IMG/VR virus record: IMGVR_UViG_3300045988_056908
Coordinates: 65,792-129,791 of that record
Strand: one strand, 5' to 3'
DNA length: 64,000 bases
Origin: a virus
This document shows positions 30,376-61,563 of the stretch, piece by piece; positions within the stretch are counted from its first letter, which is position 1, and each line of letters opens with the position of its first letter. A program made the position numbers and the translations under genes. The notes under the pieces were generated by a model. It made no database searches and had not been told where the DNA came from. It was given only the letters and a program-made list of their open reading frames with translations.

Positions 30376-30389
30376 ATTTGTTAATTTTG

Positions 30390-30461
30390 TTGGGCTACTA
30401 GGACTCGAACCTGGACTCTCAGAACCAAAATCTGATGTGACTACCATTACACCATAGCCCA
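30390..30461 (-). tRNA. tRNA-Gln(UUG)
   Basis: Acceptor TGGGCTA/TAGCCCA; D-arm TGGTGTAATGGTAGTCAC; anticodon stem TCAGA/TCTGA with loop TTTTGGT; T-arm CCAGGTTCGAGTCCTAG. Confidence 0.75.
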
Positions 30462-39671: not shown

Positions 39672-41032
39672 GGTTTTCTTTTTAATTCGTTAAATCTTTT
39701 TCTTGCTAATTTTCCATTCACAAATGTTTCTGTAACTGTTCTGATGCCTTCTATGTGAATGGTATACTCGAAGGCGTGGGTTCCAGTGAGAGTTATCACT
39801 CTTCCCCCATGAATCTGTAAATCTTGCGCGAACAGTTGAATCGCAGTGTAATCTGTTGAATTTTCTCATTTTCTTTTTCTTTTAATCCTGACTACCTATT
39901 TCTAGGTAGTTTCGTCTTAATTTTCAAAGACTCGTCAGAGGATTTTTAAAAATATCCCCACCGCTGTGGGATAAAAAATGAACACTATCAAAAGACCTTC
40001 CTGTGCCACTCTCCTTTGAATTGTTTCACAACAATTACATAGTCTCTGGGCGTACCCATTATAATCTCCAATAATACACAACAATAGTTCCCTACTCTGG
40101 ACTTGAACCAGAATCTTCTCCTTTAGAGAGAGATATACTGACTTGTACTAGTAGGGAAATACTCCACCTGCCTAAGCTCCCTATGGGAGCTGTAGGCTAT
40201 CTAGAATAAGATGGAGAGTTATTTAGATAGTTTCCTACGCTATCTACGTTACCAACGTCCACTAAGAATATAGGTAGCTAATCCATATTCTTGCGACTGA
40301 GTTCGAGGTAGGAAATATACCCTTATGAGGTATCCTCTTATCAGCTAGCCTATCCTTATCGCTCCGCGATAAGGGTTTCTAGCGGCTTATACTAGGCAAC
40401 TTCTAAATAAATAAAATGCATAACTATAAGTGATATGCTTTGGTCGACTGGCATATCAGCAGTACTTCATAATGTTGCTATAAGCGACCAACCCTATAGC
40501 TCAATCCTCTTGTAATAGTGTTTAAGTTTGCGAATATACACATTACAATCGTAGCAGTTATTTTCGGATATTGGGCTATCTGCGTAACCCCGCTTTTTGT
40601 TGCCTTTTTATAGGCTGATGTTAGAGTAAATAATCATTGTAGTATGAGTTATAAAACTCGTCCTACTGGCGATTTTTTGAAAACTGGAAAAAGTCGGAAA
40701 ATTGGGTGTCGGGGTTGTGGACAATTCTTCTCCTTACTCTCCATATTTTCACGTGAAACATACACGATTTTACTAGAAATGATAGTCTTTCCTATCAGCC
40801 AGACATAAAACTAAAACTACTACAAAAGTTAACTCGGTTTTTGATTTTTTTTTGTTTTGTTGTTGATTTCTCCGTTGACCAATGTTCCAATGATGGAGTT
40901 CATATGGGCATTTTATTTTAACTCATAATACCTTAGAGCTGCACGTTTGACTTATTTTAAATCTCGTTGTGCGCTGAGATTGACTCTAAGATTCGGTCAC
41001 ACTCTCACTTATTTATACACGAGAGAGTCGTG
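39672..41032. other. about 1.36 kb of ORF-poor DNA carrying several perfect hairpins (39893-39910, 39953-39972, 40168-40182, 40349-40371) and a T-rich tract (40845-40860)
   Basis: No ORF of 60 aa or more on either strand. Examples: CTACCTATTTCTAGGTAG, CCTTATCGCTCCGCGATAAGG, GCTCCCTATGGGAGC. Confidence 0.4.
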
Positions 41033-41725: not shown

Positions 41726-42043
41726 AATACTAAAAATTTTTAATTTGTTAATACTGTGAGTTACTTTTGTTTTTGTTTTAGTTTTATATCAATATACAGG
41801 GGGGGACTAAAGGGGTTGTGGACCGCCATAACAGTCTCTCATATAATTTTCGGAATCTAGGTAACTTTCACCTGTATATAAATTCCGAATTTATTAAACA
41901 CCCAGGGGGCTATTTATATAAAGTACCTGTACCCATTTACGGATAACTAAATGAAATATGTATAATATTAGAATTAGAATTTTTTAACTTTGTATTTAAC
42001 TTTTCAGAAGGTATTGTTGTATATAACTAAAAAAGAAACAATT

Positions 42044-42445
42044 ATGATTACAGACTTAGAAACATTACTAAATTAGGACGAGTTTAAGAATCTCGTTGAT
42101 GCAATTAATAAGAACTAGGAGTATTATCTATCAAGTAATGGTCTAACCATTAAAGCGGAATCTACAGATGATTCTTTATTCTTATTAATATCTTATGAAA
42201 GATAGAAAGAGGAAAGCTGTCTAGCTAATGAAGAAGTAGGCAAATTCCAGAAATACTTAGAATCTTTAGATGATGATTTATTTATAGATGTCTGTGAATA
42301 TCTAGGGGAGTCCGAACTGAATAAAATTCAAGAATGTTTGGAAAGTGGAAAATTGGAATCAGTAAGAGCCGGAATTACTAAATTCAGAATGGCATTATCT
42401 AATGTGGTAACTATGAAAATAGAACAACTGAAAGCATATGTATGA
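42044..42445 (+). CDS. hypothetical protein; needs 4 in-frame TAG codons read as sense
   Basis: MITDLETLLN(TAG)DEFKNLVDAINKN(TAG)EYYLSSNGLTIKAESTDDSLFLLISYER(TAG)KEESCLANEEVGKF(TAG)KYLESLDD... ends at TGA. 402 nt, in frame. Confidence 0.5.
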
Positions 42446-42578
42446 ACAAATAGCTCAAATAAGAATGCTTCTTGCTAATGTAAATGCAACTATGTAGGCT
42501 TTATTTCACGAAAACGAACAGTTAAGGAAAGAACTAGAGAAATTGGCAGCGGAGAATAAATCTCTAAAAGAGAAATAA
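42438..42578 (+). CDS. small coiled-coil protein (1 TAG read as sense)
   Basis: MYEQIAQIRMLLANVNATM(TAG)ALFHENEQLRKELEKLAAENKSLKEK. Confidence 0.35.
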
Positions 42579-42582
42579 ATAC

Positions 42583-42654
42583 TGCCCTATGGTGTAATGG
42601 TCAGCACAGATGACTCTAAATCATTTAGTCTGGGTTCGAATCCTAGTAGGGCAA
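42583..42654 (+). tRNA. amber suppressor tRNA, anticodon CUA, derived from tRNA-Gln (predicted to insert Gln at UAG)
   Basis: TGCCCTA TG GTGTAATGGTCAGCAC A GATGA CTCTAAA TCATT TAGT CTGGGTTCGAATCCTAG TAGGGCA A. Anticodon loop CTCTAAA gives CUA. The backbone (TGGTGTAATGGT..., CCTAGTAG...) is closely similar to tRNA-Gln(UUG) at 30390-30461. Confidence 0.8.
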
Positions 42655-42684: not shown

Positions 42685-42921
42685 ATGAGAATTATGATAA
42701 ATTTAAATGAGAATTATGCTGTAACTCCAACAGGAGCTAAGACCCTTATTATTGAAGAGGGAGATGATTGGAATAAAGTTTGCGATAAGGTAGTTGGATG
42801 TAGATTTGATTACATATTTGTACCTCAAGAATTTGGGAATCAAGCCTGCTACTTTCTTCCACAAATAAGTATTCAAGGAAAGCAGATAGGTAAGATATGT
42901 ACTTATAAAGTAGTGAAATGA
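42685..42921 (+). CDS. hypothetical protein
   Basis: 78-aa ORF. Its start lies inside a 22-bp tandem duplication. Confidence 0.45.
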   Translation: MRIMINLNENYAVTPTGAKTLIIEEGDDWNKVCDKVVGCRFDYIFVPQEFGNQACYFLPQISIQGKQIGKICTYKVVK

Positions 42922-43232
42922 AACAGTGTGCAGTCGTATTGAATGGTAATGATGTTGTCAAAGTTTCTAATTTAAAAAGAAAGTATGACAAAATAATGAG
43001 TAATCCCAATATGAAAATATTGGAAGAGTGTGATAAGGAAATGCTAGATGAGAAATACAACTACTGGAATAGAACATTAAATAGAAATATAGAAGAGGAG
43101 AAAAATGAGGAAGCAAAACTCCATCATTTTAGGAATCCAAAAACAGGTTGCACTATAGCAAGTATCTATCCAGATTTAGAGGAATGTAAATCATATATAA
43201 AAGACTGGATGGATTATGTTAAACTTGACTGA
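42918..43232 (+). CDS. hypothetical protein
   Basis: 104-aa ORF. Confidence 0.5.
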   Translation: MKQCAVVLNGNDVVKVSNLKRKYDKIMSNPNMKILEECDKEMLDEKYNYWNRTLNRNIEEEKNEEAKLHHFRNPKTGCTIASIYPDLEECKSYIKDWMDYVKLD

Positions 43233-43395
43233 TAAATACAACGAACTAACTAAGCCAAATTTAAAAGAGTTATCTGAAACTATACTCTTAGCAGCAGAAT
43301 CTTTAATTGAGATTGTTGCAGAAGAAGGAAAACAAAATGAACAATGGTTTCTAGATTACCTAGATGAATTAAATAGACTAAGTGTGATATATTAA
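43216..43395 (+). CDS. small hypothetical protein
   Basis: MLNLTDKYNELTKPNLKELSETILLAAESLIEIVAEEGKQNEQWFLDYLDELNRLSVIY, 59 aa. Confidence 0.35.
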   Translation: MLNLTDKYNELTKPNLKELSETILLAAESLIEIVAEEGKQNEQWFLDYLDELNRLSVIY

Positions 43396-43397
43396 AT

Positions 43398-43613
43398 ATG
43401 ATAGACTTTAAAAAGACATTAACAAACTTACATAATGAATTTCCAGAATTTGACTTGGATACATTATTTAAAATACTAGATGCTATAGTAGAAACTTCTA
43501 CTCCTACAATAACCATCCCAAGTGGTATTAGACAACCATCAGATAAACCTTGGTGGGAGGATGGTATAAATAGAATCACTTGTACTTATGATACAAAGTA
43601 TAATGTTAAATAA
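43398..43613 (+). CDS. hypothetical protein
   Basis: 71-aa ORF. Confidence 0.45.
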   Translation: MIDFKKTLTNLHNEFPEFDLDTLFKILDAIVETSTPTITIPSGIRQPSDKPWWEDGINRITCTYDTKYNVK

Positions 43614-43644
43614 AAATAGGCGAACCTAATCTCTAGGCTCGCCT
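43614..43644. terminator. bidirectional intrinsic terminator hairpin between convergent genes
   Basis: ATAGGCGA...TCGCCTAT stem flanked by AAAAAT upstream and TTTTATT downstream. Confidence 0.55.
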
Positions 43645-43658
43645 ATTTTATTATATAA

Positions 43659-43850
43659 TATAGTACCAATCAGTTCTCTCCATAACTCCTTTTTCTCTAA
43701 GCTATTTATTATCCAAATGATAATCTCCGTTTCTGAAATTCAATTCCTTTTTAGAATAATCCCAATAAAAATATCCTCTCCATCCAGGAAGTAAGAGAGT
43801 GCGACCTGTTGCCGCATAAAGAGTAGACTTATTATAATCCATATTACTTA
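43659..43850 (-). CDS. small hypothetical protein (1 TAG read as sense)
   Basis: MDYNKSTLYAATGRTLLLPGWRGYFYWDYSKKELNFRNGDYHLDNK(TAG)LREKGVMERTDWYYII. 192 nt, in frame. Confidence 0.4.
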
Positions 43851-43905
43851 TGATTAAATAATAATAGTAAATAAAGATAGATCTTAAGTATAAATTTTCT
43901 AATAT

Positions 43906-44247
43906 TCATCGCTTCTTAGTTTTAATAAATCCATAAGTTCCCTTCTTTAATCTAGTAGTAGGAATCCACCCATTATCTAGAATAGACCTATGCCCACTCG
44001 GTTTATGTATCTTAGCCCCATCTTCGTGTTTCCATTTAGAAGCATTTCTAGCAAAATTAGCTCGCTTCTTCTAAAGAGGGGTAGCGTTAGGATTGTTTAG
44101 TACGTGCTTAGCGTGTTCTTGTACAGATTCTCCTGCTGCCTTGGCAGATGCTGTAAATTTGCCTCTGTTCTTCTCTTTAATGTGGATGCCCGACCCATTT
44201 TTGAAAATTGGACACCCAAATGTTGTAATTTTCTTACTGTTAGACAT
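43906..44247 (-). CDS. hypothetical basic protein (1 TAG read as sense)
   Basis: MSNSKKITTFGCPIFKNGSGIHIKEKNRGKFTASAKAAGESVQEHAKHVLNNPNATPL(TAG)KKRANFARNASKWKHEDGAKIHKPSGHRSILDNGWIPTTRLKKGTYGFIKTKKR. 342 nt, in frame. Confidence 0.5.
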
Positions 44248-44361
44248 TTTTAATATAATGTATTATTTATTGATTTGTATCTTACAAAGAATATTAATAT
44301 ACTTGAAAAGTATCAAATAAATATAGATAAATGTGATAAATGATTAAATGAATTATGACTA

Positions 44362-45276
44362 ATGGACAAAAGTAAAATTACAAAACAAAATGGGAACATA
44401 GCTTTTGAGGAAGAAGCTCATATTTATTATGATGTTACAAAGCCAGAACAGAAGTTTATATCTGTAACGACTTTAATTCATTCTTTCACCCAACCATTTG
44501 ATAAGGAGTTCTGGTCAGCATATAAAGCACTAGAGAAACTCTTACCTAAAGAAGATTGGGCTATAGAAAAAAAGTCTTTGTTGAACACTAAGAAATTTGA
44601 TAAAGTTCTACTTGAACTTCATAACATTACAGAAGACGAGTTTAATAAAGAGCAACAAGCTATCTTAGATGCTTGGGATTTAGAGAATAGAAACTCATGC
44701 GAGAGGGGAACTAAAATCCATGCAGATTTGGAAAACTCTTTCTATAAAAAGAAACAGAACATAGACCTTAGTAAATATCAAATAGGTGGCAAGTTCGAGT
44801 GTATAAAAGACCACAATGAATTAGATTTAGAGAATGGTGTATATCCTGAGTATTTAATATCTAGAGTATCGGATGATGGAAAGCTCAGAATAGCAGGACA
44901 GATTGACTTATTAGTTAAAAGGGGAAATAAGATAATTATAGGAGACTGGAAGACCAATAAGAAAATAGAAACTAAGAGTTTCTTCAATTCTAAAACCAAA
45001 ACTTCTGTTAAGATGAAATATCCTCTAAATAATTTAGATGATGTTAATTACTGGCACTATACTTTACAATTAAGTACTTATGCTTGGATGATTCAAAAGA
45101 AAAATCCAGAGTTTGAAATAGAGGATTTGGTTTTGGTACATTTCGACCATAATGACAATATGACAGTATATCATTTACCATATCTAAAAGATGAGGTTAT
45201 AAAAATGCTAGCCTTCTATAAGAAGGAATCTATATTGGCAGAAAATAAAAGAAAACGTCAACGTATTGAATATTAA
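44362..45276 (+). CDS. PD-(D/E)XK nuclease superfamily protein (YqaJ/Cas4-like exonuclease fold)
   Basis: GQIDLLVKRGNKIIIGDWKTNKK fits the D...(D/E)xK core. 304 aa. No TAG. Confidence 0.6.
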   Translation: MDKSKITKQNGNIAFEEEAHIYYDVTKPEQKFISVTTLIHSFTQPFDKEFWSAYKALEKLLPKEDWAIEKKSLLNTKKFDKVLLELHNITEDEFNKEQQAILDAWDLENRNSCERGTKIHADLENSFYKKKQNIDLSKYQIGGKFECIKDHNELDLENGVYPEYLISRVSDDGKLRIAGQIDLLVKRGNKIIIGDWKTNKKIETKSFFNSKTKTSVKMKYPLNNLDDVNYWHYTLQLSTYAWMIQKKNPEFEIEDLVLVHFDHNDNMTVYHLPYLKDEVIKMLAFYKKESILAENKRKRQRIEY

Positions 45277-45278
45277 TT

Positions 45279-45494
45279 ATGACACTAGAGGAAATAGAAG
45301 AAAGATTTGAGATATGTAGACGCTGCCCAATATGTGACCAAGATAATGGATTATGTAATGGGCATTTGTATCTAAATCCAAAGAATAATGATATAAGTAT
45401 AAGCCCTAAAGAAGGGTATATAAAGGGATGTGGATGTTTACTAGAGAAGAAGATTCCAAACGAAAAGAAACATTGTCCAGCAGGGAAATGGTAA
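45279..45494 (+). CDS. small Cys-rich Zn-binding protein
   Basis: CRRCPICDQDNGLCNGH...GCGCLLEKKIPNEKKHCPAGKW. Confidence 0.5.
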   Translation: MTLEEIEERFEICRRCPICDQDNGLCNGHLYLNPKNNDISISPKEGYIKGCGCLLEKKIPNEKKHCPAGKW

Positions 45495-45814
45495 TCTATG
45501 GAACTCCTATATTATATAAACCAGATAAGCATTATATACTTACTGTCCAAAATATAAATAGGGAAACAAAGGAGGAAGATATGATATGGAAATGGATTAA
45601 AGCAATATTTACTAAACCTTTAACAATATTGAAAAGTATATATTTCAATATATTCGGAATAAATCAAGATTTGACAACCAAAAGATTAAAAATTTGTGAC
45701 GCTTGTTCCCATAAATTACAAACATCTGTTGGGGAAGTGTGCGATGAATGTGGTTGTATATTAGAGAATAAAACAAGAATTGAAGATGAACATTGTGATT
45801 TATGTAAATGGTAA
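45488..45814 (+). CDS. small Cys-rich protein, paralogue of 45279-45494 (start uncertain)
   Basis: C-terminus ICDACSHKLQTSVGEVCDECGCILENKTRIEDEHCDLCKW parallels the preceding gene. Confidence 0.45.
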   Translation: MVIYGTPILYKPDKHYILTVQNINRETKEEDMIWKWIKAIFTKPLTILKSIYFNIFGINQDLTTKRLKICDACSHKLQTSVGEVCDECGCILENKTRIEDEHCDLCKW

Positions 45815-45822
45815 AATGAATT

Positions 45823-46425
45823 ATGGAAACTTTAAGAACAGAATTAAACAGTAACGAAAAACTAGCACTATCATTAACTGGAATGGAAGGTACGGGAGAA
45901 CATTTTATTTTAAATGGAGAAGCTGCAGACCAAACATTATTAAGAGAAAAACAAGAGAAGTTTAATACCTCAGTAGATGAGTTAGAAGATAAATTCTCTA
46001 AACATAATCAGGCACTAGAGGATTACGCTAAATCATTATCTAACGATATGAATGGAGTTGAAATTATGCCGATGTATGGGTATGCATTAATTAAACCCTT
46101 TGAACAAAACCCATTCCAAAAAATAAAAACTACTAAAAGCGGTCTTATTACTGATTTAGGTGGATTTACTCCTACTTATAAATCTAATGAGACTGGAGAA
46201 ATCGAAGAAGAACAACAATTTATTAAAGTAGGAACTGTGATAGAAGTAGGACACAAGTGTGAGTTCTTGAAGCCTGGAGATATTGTATTTTATACAATAG
46301 CTAGTGAATGTATGGTTCCATTCTATAAACTAGGATTTGTAGTAGTTAATGAGAATAGAATCATGGCTGTAGTTAATGAGAAACTAACTGAAAGAAGAGA
46401 CGAATTGAAGCATGGAAACAATTGA
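45823..46425 (+). CDS. GroES-like co-chaperonin domain protein with N-terminal extension
   Basis: C-terminal half IMPMYGYALIKPFE...SGLI...LKPGDIVFY...RIMAVV parallels GroES IRPLHDRVIVK...GGIVL...VKVGDIVIF...DILAIV. Confidence 0.5.
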   Translation: METLRTELNSNEKLALSLTGMEGTGEHFILNGEAADQTLLREKQEKFNTSVDELEDKFSKHNQALEDYAKSLSNDMNGVEIMPMYGYALIKPFEQNPFQKIKTTKSGLITDLGGFTPTYKSNETGEIEEEQQFIKVGTVIEVGHKCEFLKPGDIVFYTIASECMVPFYKLGFVVVNENRIMAVVNEKLTERRDELKHGNN

Positions 46426-46635
46426 TGAAAAAGTTTATTTTAAGCCTGGGGATTGTGTTACTTTACGGTAGTGTAAAGTAATGCACTCTCCAGTTATGCT
46501 TGTTCTAAGAAGAGAAGCAGCTTTATTTAAAGATAACCAAGGATTACGAGGACTAAGATGTAGATGGTTTACTGATTCTGGATTAATGCAGGAAGCAGTA
46601 TTTAATACAAAGGATTTAATTAAAGTAGAAGAGTA

Positions 46636-47208
46636 ATGGCTAATTAGGAAGAATTACAGAAGGCATTCATGGCATACTTGATACAAGATGCCCAAGCACA
46701 AGGAATACAATTACAATCAGAGCAAGATTTATAGGCTTACGCTGAGTAGCTTGGAGAAGATGGAATCAAAGCCAAGTATCAAGAATTTATGTAGAAGATG
46801 CAAGGCGGAGTTATGGCTAGACTTGGAGCTAAACTAGAATACTATAAAAAATTAAAAGGAGTATGCCCAGAAGGAGAGGAACTTGTTTATTTTAAACAGG
46901 GAGGAAGAATCTGCAAAGCTTGCCAAAAAGCATAGAAAGGAACTAAGGTTACTAAGAAAGCTAATGAAGTTGACAAGTTCAAAGCTGGAAGAGCTTAGTA
47001 TAAAAAGGATATGAAATCTGCAAAGGATGAAGCGTCCAGAGATTCCGTATCAATTAATAAATATAATGACCAGGAGGTTATGGCGAACAGGGGACACAAG
47101 GGAAATTTCAAAAATGGAAAATGGGTTCCAGATAGAACAAAGTATGCTAAGAAGGATGCTTGTGGTTCTAAAATGAAAGTAAGTAAATGCGGTTCTAAAA
47201 TGAAATAA
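46636..47208 (+). CDS. hypothetical basic protein; about 8 in-frame TAG codons read as sense
   Basis: MAN(TAG)EEL(TAG)KAFMAYLI(TAG)DA(TAG)AQGIQLQSEQDL(TAG)AYAE(TAG)LGEDG... ends ...CGSKMKVSKCGSKMK then TAA. 573 nt, in frame. Confidence 0.55.
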
Positions 47209-47238
47209 AAAGATTAAAGATGTTAATGTTAATGATTG

Positions 47239-47805
47239 ATGAGTATGAATGTATTTAATTATAACACTTTAACTAAATAGTTAGAGATAAATGAACCAGA
47301 GCTTCTTCTAGTTAAAGAGTTTAAGGCTTTGATACAGAGAGATAAATCTGTTGACAAGGAACGAGTAACTAGAGAATTGTCTTACATTTATCTAGCTATT
47401 GATTGGAAGAGTCCTTATAGCCAATATTCAGAACATGAAAGACATGATGAAGCTATTAGTGACTCTGGACTATCTGAATCCGAATTTAATGACCCGTTAT
47501 TCAGGGAAGCCTGTAGAAAATACCGAGCATTGTAGGATTCTAACAAATCAATAAAACTTCTAGAAGCAGCTAAAAGAGCAGCTGACTAGTTTATTGATTA
47601 TTTTGATACTATAGTAGATTTAAATGAACGTGATAATAATGGCAAACCCGTCTTTCAAGCTGAAAAGGTAATGAAAGAAATGGCTACTCTTCATAAAGTT
47701 CATGAAGAATTAGTAACACTAGAAGAGCAGGTTAAGAAAGAGCTTACAGAACAATCTACTGTAAGAGGTGGAGCTACAGACGGCTTTGACCCAGGAGACT
47801 TTTAA
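47239..47805 (+). CDS. hypothetical protein (4 TAG read as sense)
   Basis: MSMNVFNYNTLTK(TAG)LEINEPELLLVKEFKALIQRDKSVDKERV... ends ...GFDPGDF then TAA. In frame. Confidence 0.55.
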
Positions 47806-47807
47806 TT

Positions 47808-50168
47808 ATGCCTAGAAAGAAAAAAATATTACCTGAAGAAATCTAGAATATAGTAGATTAGGTAAGAGAGAAAGAACAAAAAGAGGATGCCAAAGAAGCT
47901 AGAGAACTAGTATAGAAGATAAGAGAGGAAAGAGGCAAAAATGCTGATTATTGGGATGTAAAAAGAGGAGATAAGATAGAGGTATTTGACCCTACTTTAT
48001 CTTATGAAATAACTGGATATAGACCAATAGATGAAACACATGGTCTTGACTTCGACCCAGATTGGTTTACTGAGACCAGAGAAGTGTATAGAAAAACTGG
48101 AAAGTATTGTCCATATCTAAAAGATAGTAAGAGATATAATGAGTTTTGGAAGGAATAGTATAGAAGATGTAAATATGGAATGACTGTTAATGGTTATACA
48201 ATTACTGGAGATAACTATTTCTTCCTAAACTTCTACTAGCTTCCTATTATTGATGATAACAAGGCATCTGGAGAAGGAACAAGTAGTGACTTTCCTATAT
48301 TTTTCGCATCTCATTATATGTTCTTTCATTATCTATAGATGGCTAGAGTTCTGCATAAACACGCAGCTCTTATGAAAGCTCGTTCTATTGGATTCTCTGA
48401 AATAAATGCATCCTTATCTGCAAGAATGTATTCAGTAATCAGAAGAAGCAGAGTAATGATTACTTGTTTTAATGATACCTTCCTTAAAGGTACTTTTAGT
48501 AAGTTTGATAATGCTTTAACATTCTTGAATACTTGTACAGGAGGAGGATTCTTCAAACTACGTTTGATTGACCAAGACTTAAGAAAGAAGTCTGGTAAAC
48601 AGATTAAGGTAAACGGACAGTTTGAGGATGTTGGATTTAAATCAGAAGTAGTTGGAATAAATGGAGCTAAGGCATCTAATATTCGTGGAGACCGTGTTGA
48701 CCTATTAATATATGATGAAGCGGGGTCTTGGCCCGGACTAGATACTGCTGTAGTGCAGGGACAAGAGCTTTGTGAAGTTCAGGGTAAACCTCGTGGAACA
48801 ATGTTATTTGGAGGTACTGGTGGTGATATGGGTGCTCCATTAGCAGGTCTTAAGAAGATATATTACAATCCAAAAGCTTACAAGGTTCTTCCATTTAGAC
48901 ACAATTATACACAGGACGGAACTACTATTGAAAGTGGGTTCTTCATTCCATATTTTGTCTAGTCTCTAAATTCAGAATACATGGACCATAGAGGTGTATG
49001 TAATACAGTAGAATATAAAAAGTATCTATAGGAAGAGCGCGACAATTTATTAGCAGTTCCAGACGACTATCTAAAGAAGTGTGCCGAACGATGTTGGAAT
49101 GCAGAAGAAGCATTTAATCTTGAAGGTGTTAACAAGTTCAACAAGATTCTTATTGCGGACCAGTTAGCTAATATAAGACTTAAGAAAATAGGACCAAGAC
49201 CAGAATCTGGATACATAGACTACTTCTATAAAAATAATAAACACACCTAGGATAATATAGATGGTTTTAAATGGATTCCTAATATTAACGGAAAAGTAAA
49301 AATACTTGAACATCCTGTATGGTCTGATTTGTATAAAGAGTAGATGGATAAACTTAGATAGGAAGCTGAGGAAAGGGGAGAAGAATTTGAATCTCCAGCG
49401 TACAAAGAAATGCATGATTTATATGTTGCAGGAATAGACGGTATTGATATAGGAGCTAGTCAAACTTCAAAAGAAACAAGAGATCCTTCTGATTTCTGTA
49501 TAACTATAAAAAGAAGAGCATTTGGTCTAAACGAACCGTAGTATGTTGCTATGTATAAAGACAGACCTAATGACATTAGAGAAGCCTATAAAATAGCTAT
49601 GTGTTTAGCTAGATACTATAATTGTAGAATAAACATAGAAGCTACCCGTGTAGGTATGATTACCTGGGCTAGAGAAAAGGGTTGTTTAAACTACTTTATG
49701 AAAAGACCTAGAGCTACTCTAACAGACGTCAAGAATGGAACTACTAAATAGTACGGAACACCCGCTACCAAAACTATTATAGAACAACATACTGATTTGA
49801 CGGCAGCCTTTATTGAGGATTTCTGTCATACTATATGGTTTGAAGAAATGTTAGACCAATTTACTGGATATAATGATGAGAATAAAGGTAAATTCGATAT
49901 TGTAGCCGCTGTGGGAATGACAGAATTGGCAGACTAGGAATTGTCAGGAAGATAGCCAGTGCTTGTTGAAAAAGAAGTTGAACAATTCCAAGATTATGGT
50001 TATTATTACGACGAGAGAGGAATCAAAAGATTTGGGGTTATACCAACTTCTAAGACTTTTGAAACTAACATACAAAAAAATGAATACGATGACCCATACA
50101 GAATTGAAACAAGTGATTCTAGGTTATATGAGAGACTTGTACAAAATGGAATACGTAGGTGGGCTTGA
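47808..50168 (+). CDS. terL: terminase large subunit (TerL); about 25 in-frame TAG codons read as sense
   Basis: Single frame from ATG 47808 to TGA 50168 (786 aa) once TAG is read as sense. ATPase region KQIKVNGQFEDVGF...RVDLLIYDEAGSW. Nuclease region DFCITIKRR...IAMCLARYYNCRINIEATRVGMITWAREKG. Listed fragments 48339.., 49551.., and 49959..50168 are all in this frame. Confidence 0.75.
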
Positions 50169-50424
50169 AATTCAGAACCTAGATCCAGTTGGTTATAAGG
50201 TATCGTTTAACTTTGATAGGTCAGAGATGCCTTTAGTCATTATAGCTGATTTACCTGATGAAGAATTTCTCCCATTTATAAAGGAAGAATTAAGAAGTAG
50301 GAAGTTACAAAGAGTTAAATACTATAATGCAACTAAACTTCCTCCAGAACAGCATAATTTATGTTATGAAAGAAAAAGAACTGATAGACAAGACGAACGA
50401 GGCTATTGCGGAGCTTGTATATGA
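50080..50424 (+). CDS. hypothetical protein overlapping the TerL 3' end in another frame (start uncertain)
   Basis: Frame +1 ORF (listed 49963..50424). First plausible ATG after the TerL core is at 50080. Confidence 0.3.
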   Translation: MNTMTHTELKQVILGYMRDLYKMEYVGGLEIQNLDPVGYKVSFNFDRSEMPLVIIADLPDEEFLPFIKEELRSRKLQRVKYYNATKLPPEQHNLCYERKRTDRQDERGYCGACI

Positions 50425-52537
50425 TAAGTACGAATTATAGAAAGCCTATAATTACTACAACGGAAAGAGAGACCCAGAATAGTTTCGTTACCTGGAAGAA
50501 AACTTCGGAATAGGTAGTCCTACTTCTGTAGAATTTACACCGTTACTAAAGAAGCACGTAGATGCTCTAGTAGGGGAATATCTAGGAACCCCTATCCTTC
50601 CGAAGATTTCTTGTAAGGATTCAGATACCATTAGTAATATCACTAGAGAAAAATAGTTGGAAATAACTAAAGGGATAGTTAAATTTCTTAGAGACCATTT
50701 AAGTAATTCTATTCTGAAATTTATCGACGGAAAAGATATTACAGATAAAGCCGTGAAGACTTAGTTAGATAAAATTATTCAAGACATTGATTAGTCTTTT
50801 ATTTCTCAATATGAGATAGCTGCATAGAATATTATTCATTATATCATGCAGTCTAGAGAAACCGATTTAATAACTAAACTCCGATAGTTACTTACAGATT
50901 TATTAATTACTGGCTATACATTTTTCAGAGTAAAATCATCATCTTCTGGAACTAACATAGAAATAGAAGTTCTGAATCCTTTAAATACCTTCGTAGATAG
51001 GAATCCAGAATCTCCATATGTTAGAAATTCGTACAGAGTAGTAGTTAGAAAATGGATGAGTAAAAGCTAGATATTAGCTAAATACGGAAAAGAAATCTCT
51101 AGAGAAGATTTGAAAAGACTAAAAGATGAATGGAGAGCTGATAATTCAGCTGCAGTTTATAGAAGAGTTTATGGTGACACTTGTACTATAGTAAACGAAG
51201 ATTAGAATCATGAAACTATTCCTGGATATCCAGATAATGAATATAGTGCTCATAGATTTTAGTTAATTCCTGTTTATGATGTAGAGTGGATAGAAACTGA
51301 TGACGATTTTGTAATGTAGAGATACAATACCATTAGAATTGGAGAAGAAATATATATTCTGAGAGGTCTAGACAAGACTGTTATGAGGTCGAAAGATAAT
51401 CCTAATTTCTGCTCTTTGTCTGTGAATGGGGTATATTTCTTAAATCGTTCTCAACAACCGTACTCTCTGATATTAAAGTGTGCACATCTACAGGATAGAT
51501 ATGACTTGTTAAATTATTATAGGGATAACCTGATAGCTAACAGCGGTACTGCTGGAGTAATCATGGATATGTCATTGCTTCCTACTAACCTAGGCGTAAA
51601 ATGGCCAGAAAGAGTATAGAAATGGTTAGCATACAAGAAGGGTGGTATCATGTGGATTGATTCTACTTAGGAAGGGAGAAATGATGGAGCGCAAGCACCT
51701 AACTAGATATACAATGGATTTGATGATACCTTAAAAGCTTAGGCTGTATAGGCTATTGAATTAGCAATTCAATCAGTAGAACAAACTACATCATCTATAA
51801 CTGGAGTATTTAGAGAAAGATTAAATGGAATAGAAACTCACGATGCTGTAACTAACATTAAGCAAGGTGTTACTAACTCTTACATAGTAACCAAGCATTA
51901 TTTCTAGTAGATGGACCTAATCACTTGTGAAATATTATTGGATAGTCTAAACTAGGCTAAAATAACATATAAGAAAGGATTGACTGGTACTATTATACTT
52001 GGAGATAAATACTAGCAGATATTTACAGCGCTTCCAGAATATTTTACGGTTACTGATTATGACATCCATATAACTTCTAGCTCTGAAGTAATGGAAGATT
52101 TACAAACTATTAAAGCCATTATTCCAGAGTTTGTTAAGAGTCAGCAAATGGATCCTGACATCATATTTGAAGCACTAACTGCTAAGAGTCTTACAGACCT
52201 TAAATATAAGGTTAAGAAAGCAGTATAGATTCGTAAAGAAGAAAACAATTAGCTATAGCAGCTATAGGAAAAACTGGAAGAAACTTCACAATAGGCACAG
52301 CAGTTACAGCAAGAACTATAGAAAGCTTAGTAGAAGATAGAAAGTTTGGATGAATAGAGATTAGGATTAGAGTAGCAGAAAATGTAGTTAGAATATAAAG
52401 TTAACTGGCTCAAAGCTCAATCTGATTCTACATATAAAGATAGACAAATGGATATAGAAGAAAAGAGAACTGAAATAGAGTTAGCTTAGCTTCATGATGG
52501 AAATCCATATAATGACAAAATAAGACAAATACATTAA
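50327..52537 (+). CDS. portal protein (many in-frame TAG codons read as sense; start may be 50366)
   Basis: 736-aa frame opens after TAA 50291-50293. M(TAG)LNFL...MKEKELIDKTNEAIAELVYDKYEL(TAG)KAYNYYNGKRD.... Position and size right after TerL. Q-rich coiled-coil C-terminus. Confidence 0.6.
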
Positions 52538-52538
52538 T

Positions 52539-53273
52539 ATGGCAACTGGAACAATTGTATATAATAAGGATTAGCAATAGATTTATCCTATTTCAGATGG
52601 TTCAGTAATTATTAGTAATGCTTCTGGTTCCAAATCAAATGTGGAAGAAGATTTAAAGAAACTATTTAAATAGGTGTCAGACCTTTCTGGTTCTAGTGAA
52701 GCGGTAAATAATATTATTATTAAGATTCATTACTTACCTGCTGACACTGCTGAAGAATCTGAGATAAAATTATCTACTAAATAGTGGACTGATACTTTTG
52801 AACTTCCAACTGAAGAGAATCCATACATCTGGAAAAGAACTAAATTTACTTTCTAGGGAGCTGACGAATCTCAGGGAACTACTATTTATGAGATTGTAGC
52901 AAGCGATGTTTCTACTATTATCTAGAATATATACACTAGAACTGAGGGAATAACTCCAGTTATTGAGTATAAGCAGAAAACAGATGAGGATGGAAATCCT
53001 CTATATGTAGATTCGGAAGGACATGAAACAACGACTGTTACTCCAACTAAAGTGTATGACTATAATTATTATTGGAATGGAAAACCAGCTGGTAAGTTAA
53101 ATAGTCTACCACCGACCCCTAAAGGTTAGTCATATACATGGACAGACTATCCTCAAGATATTAGTTTATCATTTAGTTCAGTTTTTATGTCTAGACGTAT
53201 ACGACAAGAAGGTAAGTGGAAACCATTTTCTACTCCTGCTCAATATGGTCAATGGCCTACTACTGAGTCTTAA
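52539..53273 (+). CDS. virion-associated hypothetical protein (TAG recoded)
   Basis: MATGTIVYNKD(TAG)(TAG)(TAG)IYPISDGSVIISN... 244 aa, in frame to TAA. Confidence 0.5.
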
Positions 53274-53283
53274 TTATTATAAT

Positions 53284-54012
53284 ATGGAATTTAGTATTGA
53301 TATACATACCCAGATTAACGGGGAAATAACTATTGAAGACTTTTCAAAGGAATATGGATAGTATATTGATGAAGATTTAGAGGTAGTAACTTCCTATGAT
53401 TCTTATAAGTATAGTGAAAGTGCTACCCTAAATACTATCATAAAAGTTAGTATAGGAGATGCTACTTTGATAGACGTACTTCTCAATGACCATACAGAGG
53501 ATTTAGACTCTTGTACATTTAAGGTGAAAGAAGATGGATATTATGTAGTAGACCACATAATTCTTCCTAATATGAAATGGTATGAAAATTCATCTGATGA
53601 ATACAAGGAGTATTATGAAACTATCTATATAACTGATGGAGAGAAACTATATAAAGAAGTAGATGGAGAGCTAGAGGAATGTACTGTAAAAGAAATCCTT
53701 GAAAGAAATATAGAAGGGACTACTATCAAAAAATGTAAGGTAGATGTGTTCTTTACAGGAAATCTGCAATAGTGTTATATTAACTACTGTAAGAAACTCT
53801 TTGACTCTTTATTAAATAAGTGTTTAACTAGAGAACATGATGCAGATATATTTGCAAGAGATTTTATCTGGATGACACTTAACATTATAGATTATTTAAT
53901 AGGCTTTAAACAATTCATGGAAGCTGAAAGATTGTTAGCAATGTTCCGTACTTGCGGTGGATTCTGTAACAATCACCATGAACATAAACGTATAGGTTGT
54001 GGATGCTCTTAA
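53284..54012 (+). CDS. hypothetical protein with Cys-rich C-terminus (TAG recoded)
   Basis: MEFSIDIHT(TAG)INGE... incorporates listed ORF 53467..53772 ... ends CGGFCNNHHEHKRIGCGCS then TAA. Confidence 0.5.
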
Positions 54013-54167
54013 AAGAAAGGCTATTAAAAGGTATGAGGATTTCCTTAAAAGGGTTAGAAAGGGATATAGACCAGATTATTAGGATATTTTGAATCTAATT
54101 TGTTTTATTAACCTACCCGTAAAATTAGATAATCACGAATTTATTAAATAGCAATTATTGAATCATA

Positions 54168-55757
54168 ATGATACAGCCTATTTATACTTCGGTAAGCAAT
54201 GCTGATATAAAGCCTTGTGGAAAGAAAGGACATTTAATAAAAAGTGAACCTATACCTCTCCTAAGAAACAACTATCTTGGAGAATATAGAACTGAATTAG
54301 AAAGAGCTAAGGTTAGAAAGAATCTAGGTATTGCTGATGAGTAGAGTCTTCTTTGGGGAAATATAGAAGGAACTATAGAAGCCTAGAAAGATTTAGTATA
54401 GTACATAGAATAGAAATGGACTTATACTAGTGATGTTGCAGAGAATATCAATACTGTAAAAGATGCCTTAGATTATGCTTTATTCTTTATAAGTTAGTAC
54501 GAAGCTAATACAGAAGAAATAGAGGAGATAAAAGTTGATATAAGTAATATCAGAACTTCTATTACTGTACTTAAGGAAGAACTTGAAGAAGAAATTGAAT
54601 CTAACAGAACTGGCATAAACAATCTTTCTGAGAAAATAACCTAGATTAATGAGGCAATAGAGGATATTAACGAGTCTATCAAAAATATAGATGTTGACAA
54701 AAACATCTAGAATTGGATAACTAATAGTCTAAGAAACTCCAAAACCATAGAAATAAAGGATGATAATACTCTAGAAGTAATTCTATCTTAGTAGGAGGAT
54801 AATGCAATACATCTGATTCAGTAGGAAATTCCTCCAGTAGAGGAGGAAGGAGAACCTTCCACAGTAGTTCTACCTGGAATATATGTAAAAGACCTGGAAC
54901 CATCTCTAACAGAGGTAAAGGAAGAAGTTAAGGGAGTATAGGAAGCTTAGAAGAACACTGATTCTAAAGTAGATTCTAATACTGAGAATATCACAAATAT
55001 ATAGACAAGTTTAGAAACTATAGCTACTTATCAAACTGAACTTCCAGATGATACTACTTCTACTGTTATTCAAGGAACTACAGTTGAAAAATTGAAAGGA
55101 AAGCCGTTTAATGAGATTATAGACACTCTATTATTTCCTACTGTTGTTAGAGATTTGGTTTATCCTTAGTTGTATTATAGCTTCACCTCTTAGATTGTGG
55201 AGGTAGGATCCGCTTTACTTACCCCTACTTTAACATTTATAAAAAATGATGCTGGAGAGGAAACTGGTAGAGAAGAAACTATTACCTATAATGATTCTCC
55301 TGTAGAATCTGAAACATATGATTCTATCGGTGTTTATGTGCATTCTGGTACCGTAAATTATGCTGCTGGAGAATATCTTATTAACAACAAGGGAGAGGTT
55401 ACAGACAAGAGGGTGGAGGCTGGTTCAATATCAACTACAGCATAGGTGACTGCTACCTACCCTTGGTATTCTGGTAATACAAATAGTTTAATCAAATAGA
55501 GTCTTGTCCCATTTGGACAATCTTCTGGAATTATTACATTTTCATTAAGTGGAAAGGCTATTATAAAATTACCTGGAAGTAATACTTAGCTAAATTCATT
55601 TACAGTAGATGGAGGACTAGGATACCTAAATGTTGATTTAAGTGGCTGGGAAACTTCTACTGAATAGATAAATGGATTTCCTTATAAAGTATGGACTAAG
55701 AAGGATACTTATTCTTCAGCATTGCCTCATCAAATTAACTTTACTTTATCACAATAA
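54168..55757 (+). CDS. structural (tail-fibre-like) protein with coiled-coil segment (TAG recoded)
   Basis: 529-aa frame MIQPIYTSVSNADIKPCGKKGH... incorporates listed ORF 55197..55445. In frame to TAA 55755-55757. Confidence 0.5.
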
Positions 55758-57625: not shown

Positions 57626-57630
57626 ATAGT

Positions 57631-57840
57631 ATGGGAACAATTTGGGTTGAAGGGTAGTTTAAGAACTCAGCAAAACCAGTAAAAGTTGTTGGAGGAAATG
57701 TAGGAGGATCTGGAATAGACCCAGATACATTAAAGAACTACGCTACCAAGGCTGAACTGTAGAAAGCTGTTGAAGACTTAACTGCCTCCATAGAAGGAAT
57801 AGATCATAATGTAGAAGAAGAAACTTTAATAATACAATAA
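57631..57840 (+). CDS. small virion-associated hypothetical protein (TAG recoded)
   Basis: MGTIWVEG(TAG)FKNSAKPVKVVGGNVGGSGIDPDTLKNYATKAEL(TAG)KAVEDL... 69 aa. Confidence 0.4.
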
Positions 57841-57841
57841 T

Positions 57842-59662: not shown

Positions 59663-59739
59663 GATATAAAATATAGAAATCGATTTAGATATAAATCGTA
59701 GGATATTACTTCTAAAAACCGTTGATTGGCAAAAAAGAA

Positions 59740-59837
59740 CTGCTAGTAGGCAGCAACGCGAATAATGGCAGCAATGCAGGTCTCAGCTATTTCAATTCTA
59801 ACAATGGCGTCGGCTTTGCCGATTCCATTGTCGAGTT
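59740..59837 (+). repeat. DGR template repeat (TR)
   Basis: Non-coding A-rich copy of VR1 and VR2, located between the target gene and the RT. Followed by hairpin CTTGCC TCTA GGCAAG (59893-59910). Confidence 0.75.
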
Positions 59838-59978
59838 ATTATATATTTAGAACAATTTATTTTATTTTTTTTTAGTTTGCTAAGTAATATCCTTGCCTCT
59901 AGGCAAAAGACAACGTAGTGTTAAATGAAGGGTGTTAGTAGGTTAAATCTCGAAAGCTTCCGATGAAATATATAAAAA

Positions 59979-61253: not shown

Positions 61254-61563
61254 TTATGATATAAGAGAAGTTGAGGCTGAAGTTGAAATACTAGATGAGA
61301 AAGACAGTACTAAATTTGAAACTTAGTACAATTTCATCTAGGTTTTACTTAATGGACAACCTAATTATAAGGATTGCGTAAGAGCTATTATTAGAAGTTT
61401 TATAACCATAGATGAAGAATTTGATTTAATCAACTCGTATAATAGTTATACAAAAAACCTTAGCACAGATTCTTCTATCATAACAGATTATCAAGAATAT
61501 CTTACTAAATTAATGGATATTAAAGACAAAGTCAAAAAAGATTTTGGACTTGTGAATAAATAA
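61198..61563 (+). CDS. hypothetical acidic protein overlapping the RT 3' end (TAG recoded)
   Basis: MNVCP(TAG)VIQKLGNGTYYYNYDIREVEAEVEILDEKD... 121 aa. Frame +1 relative to the RT. Confidence 0.35.

What the first reader, a model, noticed from the sequence alone, without database searches (positions are those of the whole stretch)
42583..42654. Gln-derived amber suppressor tRNA(CUA) at the head of the late module
A plus-strand tRNA (the only plus-strand tRNA in the window) has anticodon loop CTCTAAA, giving CUA. Its acceptor, D-arm and T-arm closely parallel the phage tRNA-Gln(UUG) at 30390-30461. That is the expected origin for a suppressor inserting Gln at UAG. It sits exactly where the coding strand and the genetic code both switch. 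TAG-containing genes at 42044-42578 lie upstream of it, so it is not simply first in a transcript.
Basis: seen in the sequence. Interest (0 to 1): 0.75.

Follow-up and report, generated by a model that had tools for sequence, protein, structure and literature searches.

The report
Phage glutamine amber-suppressor tRNA gene
This is a real phage tRNA gene that reads the stop codon TAG as glutamine so a large gut "crAss-like" phage can translate its late structural genes; that mechanism is already well described, but some relatives carry the same tRNA split by a self-splicing-type intron that standard tRNA finders miss.

Summary
Confirmed. Window 42583-42654 (+) is a canonical 72-nt tRNA with anticodon CUA (ARAGORN; Rfam 66 bits). 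It is the only plus-strand tRNA among 27 or more.

The window comes from a ~185-kb "Zeta" crAss-like gut phage. Early genes (- strand, 1-41.7 kb) have no in-frame TAG. Late genes (+ strand, 46.4-64 kb) carry 140, which is 54% of their Gln codons. TAG positions align with CAA/CAG in 64 relatives and with Gln in three standard-code relatives, so TAG = Gln.

The tRNA body is Gln-type and is conserved with compensatory stem changes. It starts 4 nt after a TAG-containing ORF, so it is probably co-transcribed with the rightward unit.

- It is closer to suppressors of other gut phages (Lak, Suoliviridae) than to the resident tRNA-Gln(UUG).
- A second tRNA(CUA) at 40087-40157 (-) was missed. Its anticodon varies (CUA/UUA/CUG) among relatives.
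- Dense recoding starts ~4 kb downstream of the tRNA.

The phenomenon is known (Yutin 2021; Borges 2021; Peters 2022; Babkin 2025).

Noticed in passing: in six related genomes the orthologous tRNA(CUA) is split between U35 and A36 by a group-I-like intron, five with an HNH ORF. tRNA finders do not detect these genes.

The parts
42583..42654 (+). tRNA(CUA), Gln-type amber suppressor. It is 72 nt including discriminator A73. CCA is not encoded; the 3' trailer is CGCCAAAA.
   Evidence: ARAGORN. Rfam RF00005 at 66.3 bits. Family cloverleaf is 98% paired, with 12/21 pairs compensatory and 0/500 shuffles reaching the observed values. The sequence is identical in all relatives with TerL identity of 86% or more, except for single-base variants in a few loci (L012, L026, L052, L065).
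40087..40157 (-). Second tRNA(CUA), in the leftward (standard-code) unit. Its D-loop is unusual and lacks G18G19. Orthologues carry CUA, UUA or CUG anticodons.
   Evidence: ARAGORN. Rfam 54.9 bits. Anticodon variants in relatives. Cloverleaf 96% paired, 6 pairs compensatory.
42044..42445 (+). First ORF of the rightward unit: 133 aa, 3 in-frame TAG, function unknown. It is syntenic with the tRNA down to about 30% protein identity.
   Evidence: No Pfam or PHROG hit.
42438..42578 (+). Small ORF (46 aa, 1 in-frame TAG). Its TAA stop ends 4 nt before the tRNA.
   Evidence: Sequence. The TAG corresponds to CAG/CAA in relatives.
41726..42043 (.). Divergent intergenic region between the leftward and rightward units. 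GC skew changes sign here (cumulative minimum).
   Evidence: Promoter scans were not above chance.
42685..46425 (+). TAG-poor block immediately downstream of the tRNA. It includes a PD-(D/E)XK-type exonuclease at 44362-45276 and a GroES-like gene at 45823-46425. It also includes two - strand genes at 43651-44247.
46412..64000 (+). Densely TAG-recoded late block: TerL 47808-50168 (15 TAG), portal 50327-52537 (32 TAG), tail proteins and a DGR. It holds 140 TAG, which is 54% of its Gln codons.
30389..30461 (-). Resident tRNA-Gln(UUG). It is the closest paralogue within the window (69-72% identity).

Best explanation
The element is a functional phage-encoded amber-suppressor tRNA. It is charged with glutamine and decodes UAG as Gln (genetic code 15) in a Zeta-group crAss-like phage.

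Shown:
- It is a canonical cloverleaf tRNA with a CUA anticodon, kept under purifying selection with compensatory stem changes across relatives.
- TAG is never used in-frame in the early (- strand) genes, but it is the majority Gln codon in the late structural genes.
- TAG positions correspond to CAA/CAG or Gln in relatives.
- The gene sits 4 nt downstream of one ORF and 30 nt upstream of the next, on the late-gene strand.

Inferred:
- It is transcribed as part of the rightward polycistronic unit from the divergent region at 41.7-42.0 kb.
- It is excised by host RNase P and 3' processing, and receives CCA post-transcriptionally.
- It is aminoacylated by the host GlnRS. The CUA anticodon with U35 and a Gln-like body with U1-A72 favour this.
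- It outcompetes RF1 at the roughly 140 UAG codons of the packaging, portal and tail genes, so these proteins can only be completed once suppressor has accumulated.
- The second tRNA(CUA), in the leftward unit, may supply the first suppressor molecules. The conserved plus-strand copy is the main supplier.
For: tRNA call.

Structure and covariation: (98.2% of cells paired; 12/21 pairs with changes on both sides; controls with slid partners about 45% paired).

Conservation and synteny upstream of TerL in relatives down to 67% TerL identity.

Code switch:
- the + strand beyond 44 kb is 88-100% ORF-covered only if TAG is sense.
- per-gene TAG counts.
- TAG share of Gln codons is 0% early, 10% in 42.0-46.4 kb and 54% late.
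- early genes stop with TAA 43, TGA 18, TAG 3.

TAG = Gln:
- in the 85-95% identity class, 477 of 511 non-TAG substitutions are CAA/CAG, with CAA (two mutations away) predominant.
- Q is the majority alternative at 66 of 104 variable sites. 85% of window CAA sites are TAG in some relative, against 2% of TAT sites.
- standard-code relatives L063, L068 and L070 have Q at 70 of 134 aligned TAG sites, against a background Q frequency of 5-6%.

Gln-type body: full-length annotated hits are tRNA-Gln of Mycobacterium, Streptomyces, Pseudomonas and Rhodococcus phages; U1 paired with A72 or G72 throughout the family.

Literature: TAG to Gln with phage suppressor tRNAs in late genes of crAss-like and Zeta phages (PMC7886860; bioRxiv 10.1101/2021.08.26.457843; PMC12386605). 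Proteomic proof in two crAss-like phages (PMC9523058).
Against: There is no expression, processing or aminoacylation data for this tRNA.

Several E. coli GlnRS identity elements are absent: C3-G70 instead of G3-C70, A73 instead of G73, and A38 instead of U38. The resident phage tRNA-Gln(UUG) also has A73, and the host enzyme is not E. coli's.

No isotype-specific covariance model was available.

The promoter is not identified.

No RF or aaRS 'code-change' gene is in the window. How RF1 is outcompeted at 32 UAGs in one gene is therefore unexplained.

The 3.7 kb just downstream of the tRNA is nearly TAG-free, so the tRNA is not adjacent to the heavily recoded genes.
Confidence: 0.87

Rival explanations
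1. The plus-strand tRNA is redundant or secondary, and the minus-strand tRNA(CUA) at 40087-40157 does the real decoding as an early-expressed suppressor (the classic Borges timing model).
For: A second CUA tRNA exists near the head of the leftward, standard-code unit, and its cloverleaf is maintained. Early expression would let the TAG-containing first ORFs of the rightward unit be translated.
Against: The minus copy is evolutionarily labile. Its anticodon is CUA, UUA or CUG, and some relatives have a 6-nt or aberrant loop. The window copy lacks G18G19. The copy is absent from the 10-kb flank in the 74% TerL clade. All those genomes remain fully TAG-recoded and all keep the plus copy. L053 has CUG in the minus copy yet 15 and 35 TAGs in TerL and portal.
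Confidence: 0.08
2. The suppressor is mainly an anti-host weapon. It causes read-through of host UAG stops to cripple host or defence proteins, rather than serving phage decoding (suggested for Zeta phages that carry 'unused' suppressors).
For: Yutin 2021 (PMC7886860) and Babkin 2025 (PMC12386605) propose this. Some Zeta phages carry a CTA suppressor without any recoding (PMC12386605, Table 1). The phage itself almost never stops on TAG, so it is immune to read-through.
Against: Here 144 in-frame TAGs lie in essential packaging, portal and tail genes, and these cannot be made without suppression. An anti-host effect can only be an additional role, not an alternative one.
Confidence: 0.04
3. 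It is a tRNA-Pyl or another non-Gln suppressor (Tyr, Trp, Lys, Glu, Leu or Ser inserted at UAG).
For: ARAGORN prints 'tRNA-Pyl'. Partial BLAST hits lacking the acceptor ends are annotated tRNA-Trp or tRNA-Arg.
Against: The ARAGORN label is anticodon-only. The structure is a standard cloverleaf: 7-bp acceptor, 4-bp D stem, D-loop with GG, 5-bp anticodon stem, GTTCGAATC T-loop. It is not the atypical tRNA-Pyl architecture. No pyl genes were found among the window proteins scanned. TAG sites exchange with CAA/CAG, not with the single-step neighbours TAT/TAC (2%), TGG (6%) or TTG (0%).
Confidence: 0.01
4. It is a decaying tRNA relic or a phage attachment or recombination site, rather than an expressed gene.
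For: Phage tRNA arrays often contain pseudogenes. The window has two tRNA-like Rfam-only hits. In some relatives the gene is interrupted by about 1 kb.
Against: The tRNA scores high. It is invariant in close relatives and shows compensatory changes in acceptor, anticodon and T stems in distant ones. The interrupted copies rejoin in silico into perfect tRNA(CUA) genes.
Confidence: 0.01

Closest known systems
Suppressor tRNA(CUA) genes of TAG-recoded crAss-like phages (Zeta group / proposed Echekviridae; Suoliviridae such as cr7_1, cr124_1, cr60_1), i.e. genetic code 15
   Same: The anticodon is the same, and the Gln-type body is 83-86% identical to cr7_1 and cr60_1. The genomic logic matches: standard-code early genes, TAG-recoded late genes, and the tRNA upstream of TerL/portal.
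   Different: Published tables list a single 'CTA' entry per genome (PMC12386605, Table 1). Here there are two CUA tRNAs flanking the divergent junction, one of them with a mutable anticodon. The position 4 nt after a TAG-containing ORF is specific to this lineage.
E. coli supE (glnV/glnX amber suppressor, tRNA-Gln CUA) and supB (tRNA-Gln UUA ochre suppressor)
   Same: In both cases a Gln tRNA body with a mutated anticodon inserts Gln at UAG. The UUA variants of the minus-strand copy in relatives parallel supB. The weak U1-A72 pair, G2-C71, G10 and U35 are present (own knowledge of GlnRS identity elements; sequence).
   Different: This tRNA is phage-encoded and naturally fixed. It must work at high efficiency, since TAG makes up 54% of late Gln codons. 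It has C3-G70, A73 and A38 instead of G3-C70, G73 and U38.
Lak megaphage suppressor tRNA / 'code-change modules' of Jade phages (Borges et al.)
   Same: Phage-encoded suppressors are proposed to time late and lysis gene translation. The spliced Lak-B1 tRNA(CUA) is 87.5% identical to the window tRNA.
   Different: No RF2, RF1 or aaRS gene accompanies the tRNA in this window. The Lak-B1 copy is intron-interrupted and the window copy is not.
Group I introns in bacterial tRNA anticodon loops (cyanobacterial tRNA-Leu(UAA), tRNA-fMet; Azoarcus tRNA-Ile). Relevant to the relatives only.
   Same: In L030, L036, L084, L085, MT835539.1 and Lak-B1 the insert lies inside the anticodon. The 5' exon ends in U and the insert ends in G. 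There is a P3/P7/P8/P9-like core, and P3 covaries.
   Different: The host gene is a phage suppressor tRNA. Five of the six inserts carry an HNH homing-endonuclease ORF. The Rfam group I model does not detect them. P1 is clear only in the ORF-less Lak-B1 version. The window's own tRNA is uninterrupted.

Membership tests
tRNA (Rfam RF00005) | Full-length match above the gathering score, with a cloverleaf supported by covariation | tested here: met
   66.3 bits against a gathering score of 29, model positions 1-71/71. 98.2% of cells paired and 12/21 pairs compensatory.
Amber suppressor tRNA | CUA anticodon at positions 34-36 of a 7-nt loop, with U33 and a purine at 37 | tested here: met
   The loop is CUCUAAA. 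This is invariant across the family.
Amber suppressor tRNA | Actual read-through of UAG in vivo | not testable with these tools
   This is indirect only: 144 in-frame TAGs lie in conserved essential genes.
tRNA-Gln isotype | Closest annotated homologues with sense anticodons are tRNA-Gln | tested here: met
   Hits include Wildcat tRNA-Gln(CUG) at 82-83% over positions 1-71, and tRNA-Gln of Streptomyces, Pseudomonas, Rhodococcus and Acinetobacter phages. Trp and Arg hits are partial.
tRNA-Gln isotype | E. coli GlnRS identity set: U1-A72, G2-C71, G3-C70, G73, G10, U35, A37, U38 | tested here: inconclusive
   Present: U1-A72, G2-C71, G10, U35, A37. Absent: G3-C70 (C3-G70 here), G73 (A73 here), U38 (A38 here). 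The resident tRNA-Gln(UUG) also has A73. Host GlnRS rules are unknown.
tRNA-Gln isotype | Top score with an isotype-specific covariance model (tRNAscan-SE) | not tested
Genetic code 15 phage (TAG = Gln) | In-frame TAG in conserved genes. ORFs are restored only when TAG is read as sense, not when TGA or TAA is. | tested here: met
   There are no in-frame TGA or TAA codons in the window's TerL or portal, or in those of nearly all relatives.
Genetic code 15 phage (TAG = Gln) | TAG positions align with Gln in homologues | tested here: met
Genetic code 15 phage (TAG = Gln) | Peptides with Gln at TAG positions | not testable with these tools
   Shown for two other crAss-like phages (PMC9523058).
Zeta crAss-like phages (Crassvirales; proposed Echekviridae) | crAss-type TerL and portal; 145-192 kb genome; tRNA block; frequent DGR and stop-codon recoding | tested here: met
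   TerL matches phrog_6681 (1e-61) and portal matches phrog_6547. TerL is 26-29% identical to Crassvirales TerL. Relatives' contigs are 180-192 kb. There are 27 tRNAs and a DGR. MCP and phylogeny were not tested.
tRNA-Pyl | Atypical architecture (short D-loop, 6-bp anticodon stem, 3-nt variable loop) and pyl genes nearby | tested here: not met
   The tRNA is a standard cloverleaf. No pyl genes were found among the proteins scanned.
Group I intron (orthologues in relatives, not the window) | 5' exon ends in U, intron ends in G, and exon joining restores the gene | tested here: met
   Found in L030, L036, L084, L085, L006 (MT835539.1) and L087 (Lak-B1). In five of the six the spliced product is called tRNA(CUA) by ARAGORN. 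The Lak-B1 junction was reconstructed by eye.
Group I intron (orthologues in relatives, not the window) | Conserved P3-P9 core with covariation | tested here: inconclusive
   P3 has 10 distinct variants, pairing 6-7/7 with their own partner against about 4/7 with other partners. P7, P8 and P9 were identified by eye. P1/IGS is clear only in Lak-B1.
Group I intron (orthologues in relatives, not the window) | Match to Rfam Intron_gpI (RF00028) | tested here: not met
   There was no hit at E <= 1 on L030:1800-3050, and no hit at gathering score on 13 loci.
Group I intron (orthologues in relatives, not the window) | Homing endonuclease ORF | tested here: met
   PF01844 HNH scores 24.1 bits against a cutoff of 21.4. 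The ORF is 78% conserved between L030 and L036.

The most novel reading that the evidence does not exclude
The code switch may be staged rather than simply switched on.

In this phage two Gln-type suppressors flank the divergent junction. The copy in the leftward unit is evolutionarily labile (CUA, UUA or CUG) and may prime UAG decoding. The invariant copy embedded in the rightward transcript may then amplify it.

In at least six related genomes (Zeta-like phages, GenBank MT835539.1 and Lak-B1) the same tRNA(CUA) is interrupted between anticodon positions 35 and 36 by a group-I-type intron. In those phages production of the suppressor, and hence late translation, would be gated by self-splicing.

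The same tRNA(CUA) body, with or without the intron, is found in Zeta crAss-like, Suoliviridae and Lak genomes.

The structural facts are well supported (about 0.8): the genes are split, and they are invisible to ARAGORN and Rfam. That could explain part of the 'recoded but no suppressor found' problem. The regulatory reading is speculative.
Probability: 0.2. Interest if true: 0.7.

Novelty: new member of a known kind. Interest (0 to 1): 0.35.

Why it matters
The tRNA itself only confirms a textbook-in-the-making mechanism: phage-encoded Gln suppressor, code 15, late-gene recoding. It is useful mainly for annotation, because this window must be translated with TAG = Gln on the + strand beyond about 42 kb.

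The comparative results add three points:
- TAG is the majority glutamine codon of the late genes, so suppression must be very efficient. No RF or aaRS helper was found nearby.
- This phage carries two suppressors with very different evolutionary stability.
- Intron-split suppressor tRNA genes exist in relatives and in a Lak megaphage. They offer a concrete, testable reason why many TAG-recoded phage genomes appear to lack a suppressor.

Tried and rejected
- **Promoters.** The sigma-70 promoter and terminator scan of 39.8-44.5 kb found 22 sites against 19.3 expected. The Bacteroidetes-type motifs TTTG-N17-22-TAnnTTTG (3 against 2.55 expected) and TAnnTTTG (75 against 73.6) were also at chance. 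Transcription units therefore cannot be mapped from sequence.
- **Code-change proteins.** I looked for RF1/RF2, GlnRS, amidotransferase and CCA-adding enzyme among 30 window proteins. None was found.
- **Flanking small ORFs.** The ORFs around the tRNA, including the syntenic 42044-42445, have no family assignment.
- **tRNA-Pyl reading.** Rejected, because the ARAGORN label is anticodon-only.
- **Recent duplicate of the resident tRNA-Gln(UUG).** Rejected: identity is 69-72%, against 82-88% to tRNAs of other phages.
- **Minus-strand tRNA in the phage collection.** BLAST gave no match.
- **Rfam group I intron model on the split genes.** No hit.
- **Same intron core in the window.** Absent.
- **Split tRNA halves in L035, L047 and L069.** None within the flanks.
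- **P1/IGS of the HNH-bearing introns.** Not resolved by eye.
- **L079 5' half.** Not recovered.

Full report
**1. Observation**

ARAGORN finds 27 tRNAs in the window. Twenty-six are on the - strand, between 15.4 and 40.2 kb. One is on the + strand at 42583-42655 with anticodon CTA. Its 'Pyl' label is simply ARAGORN's name for any CUA anticodon.

Rfam's tRNA model matches 42583-42654 (+) end to end at 66.3 bits, against a gathering score of 29. The anticodon loop is CUCUAAA.

**2. What the window is**

- The + strand ORFs beyond 46 kb encode TerL (phrog_6681, 1e-61), portal, tail proteins and a DGR reverse transcriptase.
- TerL is 26-29% identical to Crassvirales terminases.
- Sixty-four related loci from IMG/VR come from contigs of about 180-192 kb.
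- Together with the large tRNA block and the DGR, this matches the 'Zeta' crAss-like phages of Yutin et al. 2021 (PMC7886860) and Babkin et al. 2025 (PMC12386605).
- Babkin's Table 1 lists 183-189-kb genomes with 27 tRNAs, a CTA suppressor, amber suppression and a DGR.

**3. The code switch is real but not sharp**

With the standard code, - strand ORFs cover about 70-95% of 1-36 kb. The + strand beyond 44 kb is only 10-50% covered. It becomes 88-100% covered only if TAG is read as sense, not if TGA or TAA is.

| Region | Codons | In-frame TAG | TAG share of Gln codons |
|---|---|---|---|
| Early genes (- strand) | 6329 | 0 | 0% |
| + genes 42044-46425 | 1123 | 4 | 10% |
| Late genes 46412-64000 | 5428 | 140 | 54% (87 CAA, 34 CAG) |

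All four TAGs in the middle block lie in the two ORFs upstream of the tRNA.

Early genes stop on TAA (43) or TGA (18) and almost never on TAG (3).

The strand switch lies at 41726-42043. GC skew changes sign there and the cumulative skew reaches its minimum. The tRNA therefore lies about 0.55 kb inside the rightward unit and about 4 kb before the densely recoded block.

**4. TAG means glutamine**

I aligned seven late proteins to the DNA of the 64 relatives.

- In the 85-95% identity class, window TAG codons are replaced by CAA (287) or CAG (190) in 477 of 511 non-TAG cases. CAA is two mutations away from TAG, so this reflects selection for Gln and not mutational proximity.
- Per site, Gln is the majority alternative at 66 of 104 variable TAG sites.
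- Conversely, 85% of window CAA sites and 79% of CAG sites are TAG in some relative. The figures are 2% for TAT/TAC, 6% for TGG and 0% for TTG.
- Three relatives use the standard code (L063, L068, L070), with no in-frame TAG in TerL or portal. They have Gln at 70 of 134 aligned TAG sites, against a 5-6% background.
- The TAGs of the two ORFs upstream of the tRNA also exchange with CAA/CAG, as does the TAG of the - strand gene 43906-44247.

**5. The tRNA is functional and Gln-type**

The sequence is identical in nearly all relatives with TerL identity of 86% or more. A few loci differ by a single base.

In the 74% clade it differs by paired changes in the acceptor, anticodon and T stems. On a 16-sequence family alignment the cloverleaf is 98.2% paired. 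Twelve of 21 pairs have changes on both sides, 0/500 shuffles reach the observed values, and controls with slid partners pair at about 45%.

When the tRNA alone is searched against 50,697 phage records, two kinds of full-length hit appear. Some are CUA tRNAs of crAss-like phages, annotated tRNA-Gln. The others are genuine tRNA-Gln genes: Wildcat CUG at 82-83%, plus Streptomyces, Pseudomonas and Rhodococcus phages. Trp and Arg hits are partial.

The family keeps U1 opposite A72 or G72, which is the weak first pair typical of tRNA-Gln (own knowledge), and an A73 discriminator. The resident tRNA-Gln(UUG) also has A73.

Identity to that resident tRNA is only 69-72%. This is lower than to the spliced Lak-B1 suppressor (87.5%), cr7_1 (86%) or Wildcat tRNA-Gln (82%). 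So 'Gln-type' is supported, but 'derived from the neighbouring tRNA-Gln' is not. The tRNA belongs to a suppressor lineage shared among gut phages.

**6. How it most likely works**

The tRNA starts 4 nt after the TAA stop of ORF 42438-42578 and ends 30 nt before the next ORF. That leaves no room upstream for its own promoter, and CCA is not encoded.

I infer the following steps:
- co-transcription with the rightward unit;
- excision by host RNase P and 3' processing;
- CCA addition;
- glutaminylation by the host GlnRS, since CUA suppressors are known GlnRS substrates (as noted in bioRxiv 10.1101/2021.08.26.457843);
- competition with RF1.

No RF or aaRS gene was found in the window, and promoters could not be located.

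The synteny 'ORF 42044 then tRNA(CUA)' holds down to about 30% protein identity.

**7. The second suppressor**

The - strand tRNA at 40087-40157 keeps a cloverleaf with compensatory changes. Its anticodon varies among otherwise near-identical genomes:
- CUA in most;
- UUA (ochre type) in nine loci;
- CUG (Gln) in L053;
- damaged loops in L013, L014 and L032.

The copy is not seen within the flanks of the 74% clade. All these genomes stay TAG-recoded with no in-frame TAA.

The plus-strand copy is therefore the indispensable one. The CUG variant independently suggests a Gln-compatible body for the minus copy.

**8. Found in passing: split suppressor genes**

L030 and L036 are TAG-recoded, but neither ARAGORN nor Rfam calls a tRNA in them. 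In both, the orthologous tRNA is split between U35 and A36 by about 1 kb. The insert carries an HNH endonuclease ORF (Pfam PF01844) and a conserved ~160-nt core ending in G.

The same architecture occurs in L084, L085 and GenBank MT835539.1. An ORF-less 245-nt version occurs in Prevotella phage Lak-B1. For the five HNH-bearing cases, joining the exons in silico gives a tRNA(CUA) that ARAGORN accepts. The Lak-B1 junction was reconstructed by eye.

The core belongs to a wider phage intron family, and its P3 helix covaries: 10 variants pair 6-7/7 with their own partner against about 4/7 with others. Rfam's group I model does not detect these inserts. P1 is clear only in Lak-B1.

In the papers I could read, Yutin 2021 and Babkin 2025 discuss undetectable suppressors and abundant introns in protein genes, but not intron-split suppressor tRNAs. 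Devoto et al. (bioRxiv 10.1101/356790) report 'enigmatic' tRNA introns in Lak phages in other isotypes.

**9. Verdict**

The finding is real and correctly interpreted in substance. It is a new member of a well-known kind.

Interest is moderate to low for the tRNA itself. It is higher for the dual-suppressor arrangement and for the intron-split orthologues, which lie outside the window.

Noticed in passing
window 40087-40157 (-); relatives L007-L065: There is a second tRNA(CUA) on the early strand. Its orthologues in near-identical genomes carry CUA, UUA (ochre type; 9 loci), CUG (Gln; L053) or damaged loops. None of these genomes shows TAA recoding.
   Followed up: partly
L030 1885-2957; L036 3053-4095; L084; L085; L006 (MT835539.1 14976-16050); L087 (Lak-B1, locus 2501-2818): The orthologous suppressor tRNA(CUA) is split between U35 and A36 by a group-I-like intron. 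The intron is about 1 kb with an HNH ORF, or 245 nt without an ORF in Lak-B1. ARAGORN and Rfam miss these genes. In-silico splicing restores tRNA(CUA).
   Followed up: partly
window 40213-40404 (-) and 39885-39972 (-): A RAGATH-14 RNA (154 bits, above gathering score) lies immediately upstream of the minus-strand tRNA(CUA). About 115 nt downstream of the tRNA is a hammerhead-like element with a complete core (CUGACGAG...CGAAAC...GUC), at 30.8 bits and below the gathering score. RAGATH-14 is also next to the tRNA in L008. L039 has a RAGATH-1 hammerhead above threshold.
   Followed up: partly
window 20325-20824 (-): Rfam calls a phage-encoded tmRNA (RF00023, 76 bits) spanning 500 nt against a 374-position model. 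ARAGORN does not call it, so it may carry an insertion.
   Followed up: no
window 57842-61253 (+): A diversity-generating retroelement is present. The VR is at 59540-59637 in the C-terminus of the tail protein. The TR is at 59740-59837, with differences at TR adenines. The RT is at 60249-61253 and itself has 5 in-frame TAG.
   Followed up: partly
window 42670-42718 (+): A perfect 22-bp tandem duplication (TTATGATAAATTTAAATGAGAA x2.2) lies right after the tRNA. It overlaps the start of ORF 42685 and creates a short upstream mini-ORF.
   Followed up: no
window ~41000-42000: GC skew flips from about -0.17 to +0.15 and the cumulative skew reaches its minimum at the divergent junction. This could be a replication origin, though it is confounded with the coding strand. 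The noncoding stretch 40405-41030 is unexplained.
   Followed up: partly
window 43651-43842 (-) and 43906-44247 (-): Two - strand genes sit inside the + strand block, each with one in-frame TAG. In 43906-44247 the TAG corresponds to CAG/CAA in relatives. The overlapping + strand ORF 43990-44253 is spurious, because relatives have an in-frame TAA there.
   Followed up: partly
window 25192-25272 (-) and 22538-22610 (-): Two tRNA-like Rfam hits (45.1 and 39.5 bits) are not called by ARAGORN. The first has an over-long anticodon region.
   Followed up: no
window 37424-37684 (-): A free-standing HNH endonuclease gene (PF13392) lies between tRNA-Lys and tRNA-Arg. It is 45% identical over 76 aa to the intron-borne HNH of L030.
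   Followed up: no
window 7578-9128 (-), 11006-12022 (-), 31011-32984 (-): The early region holds auxiliary genes: a NAMPT/NAPRTase-like enzyme, an OmpA-like beta-barrel protein and an SPFH/Band-7 protein.
   Followed up: no
L007 2241-3525; L053 1725-3013: These relatives carry an insertion of about 1 kb in the divergent intergenic region that is 318 bp in the window.
   Followed up: no
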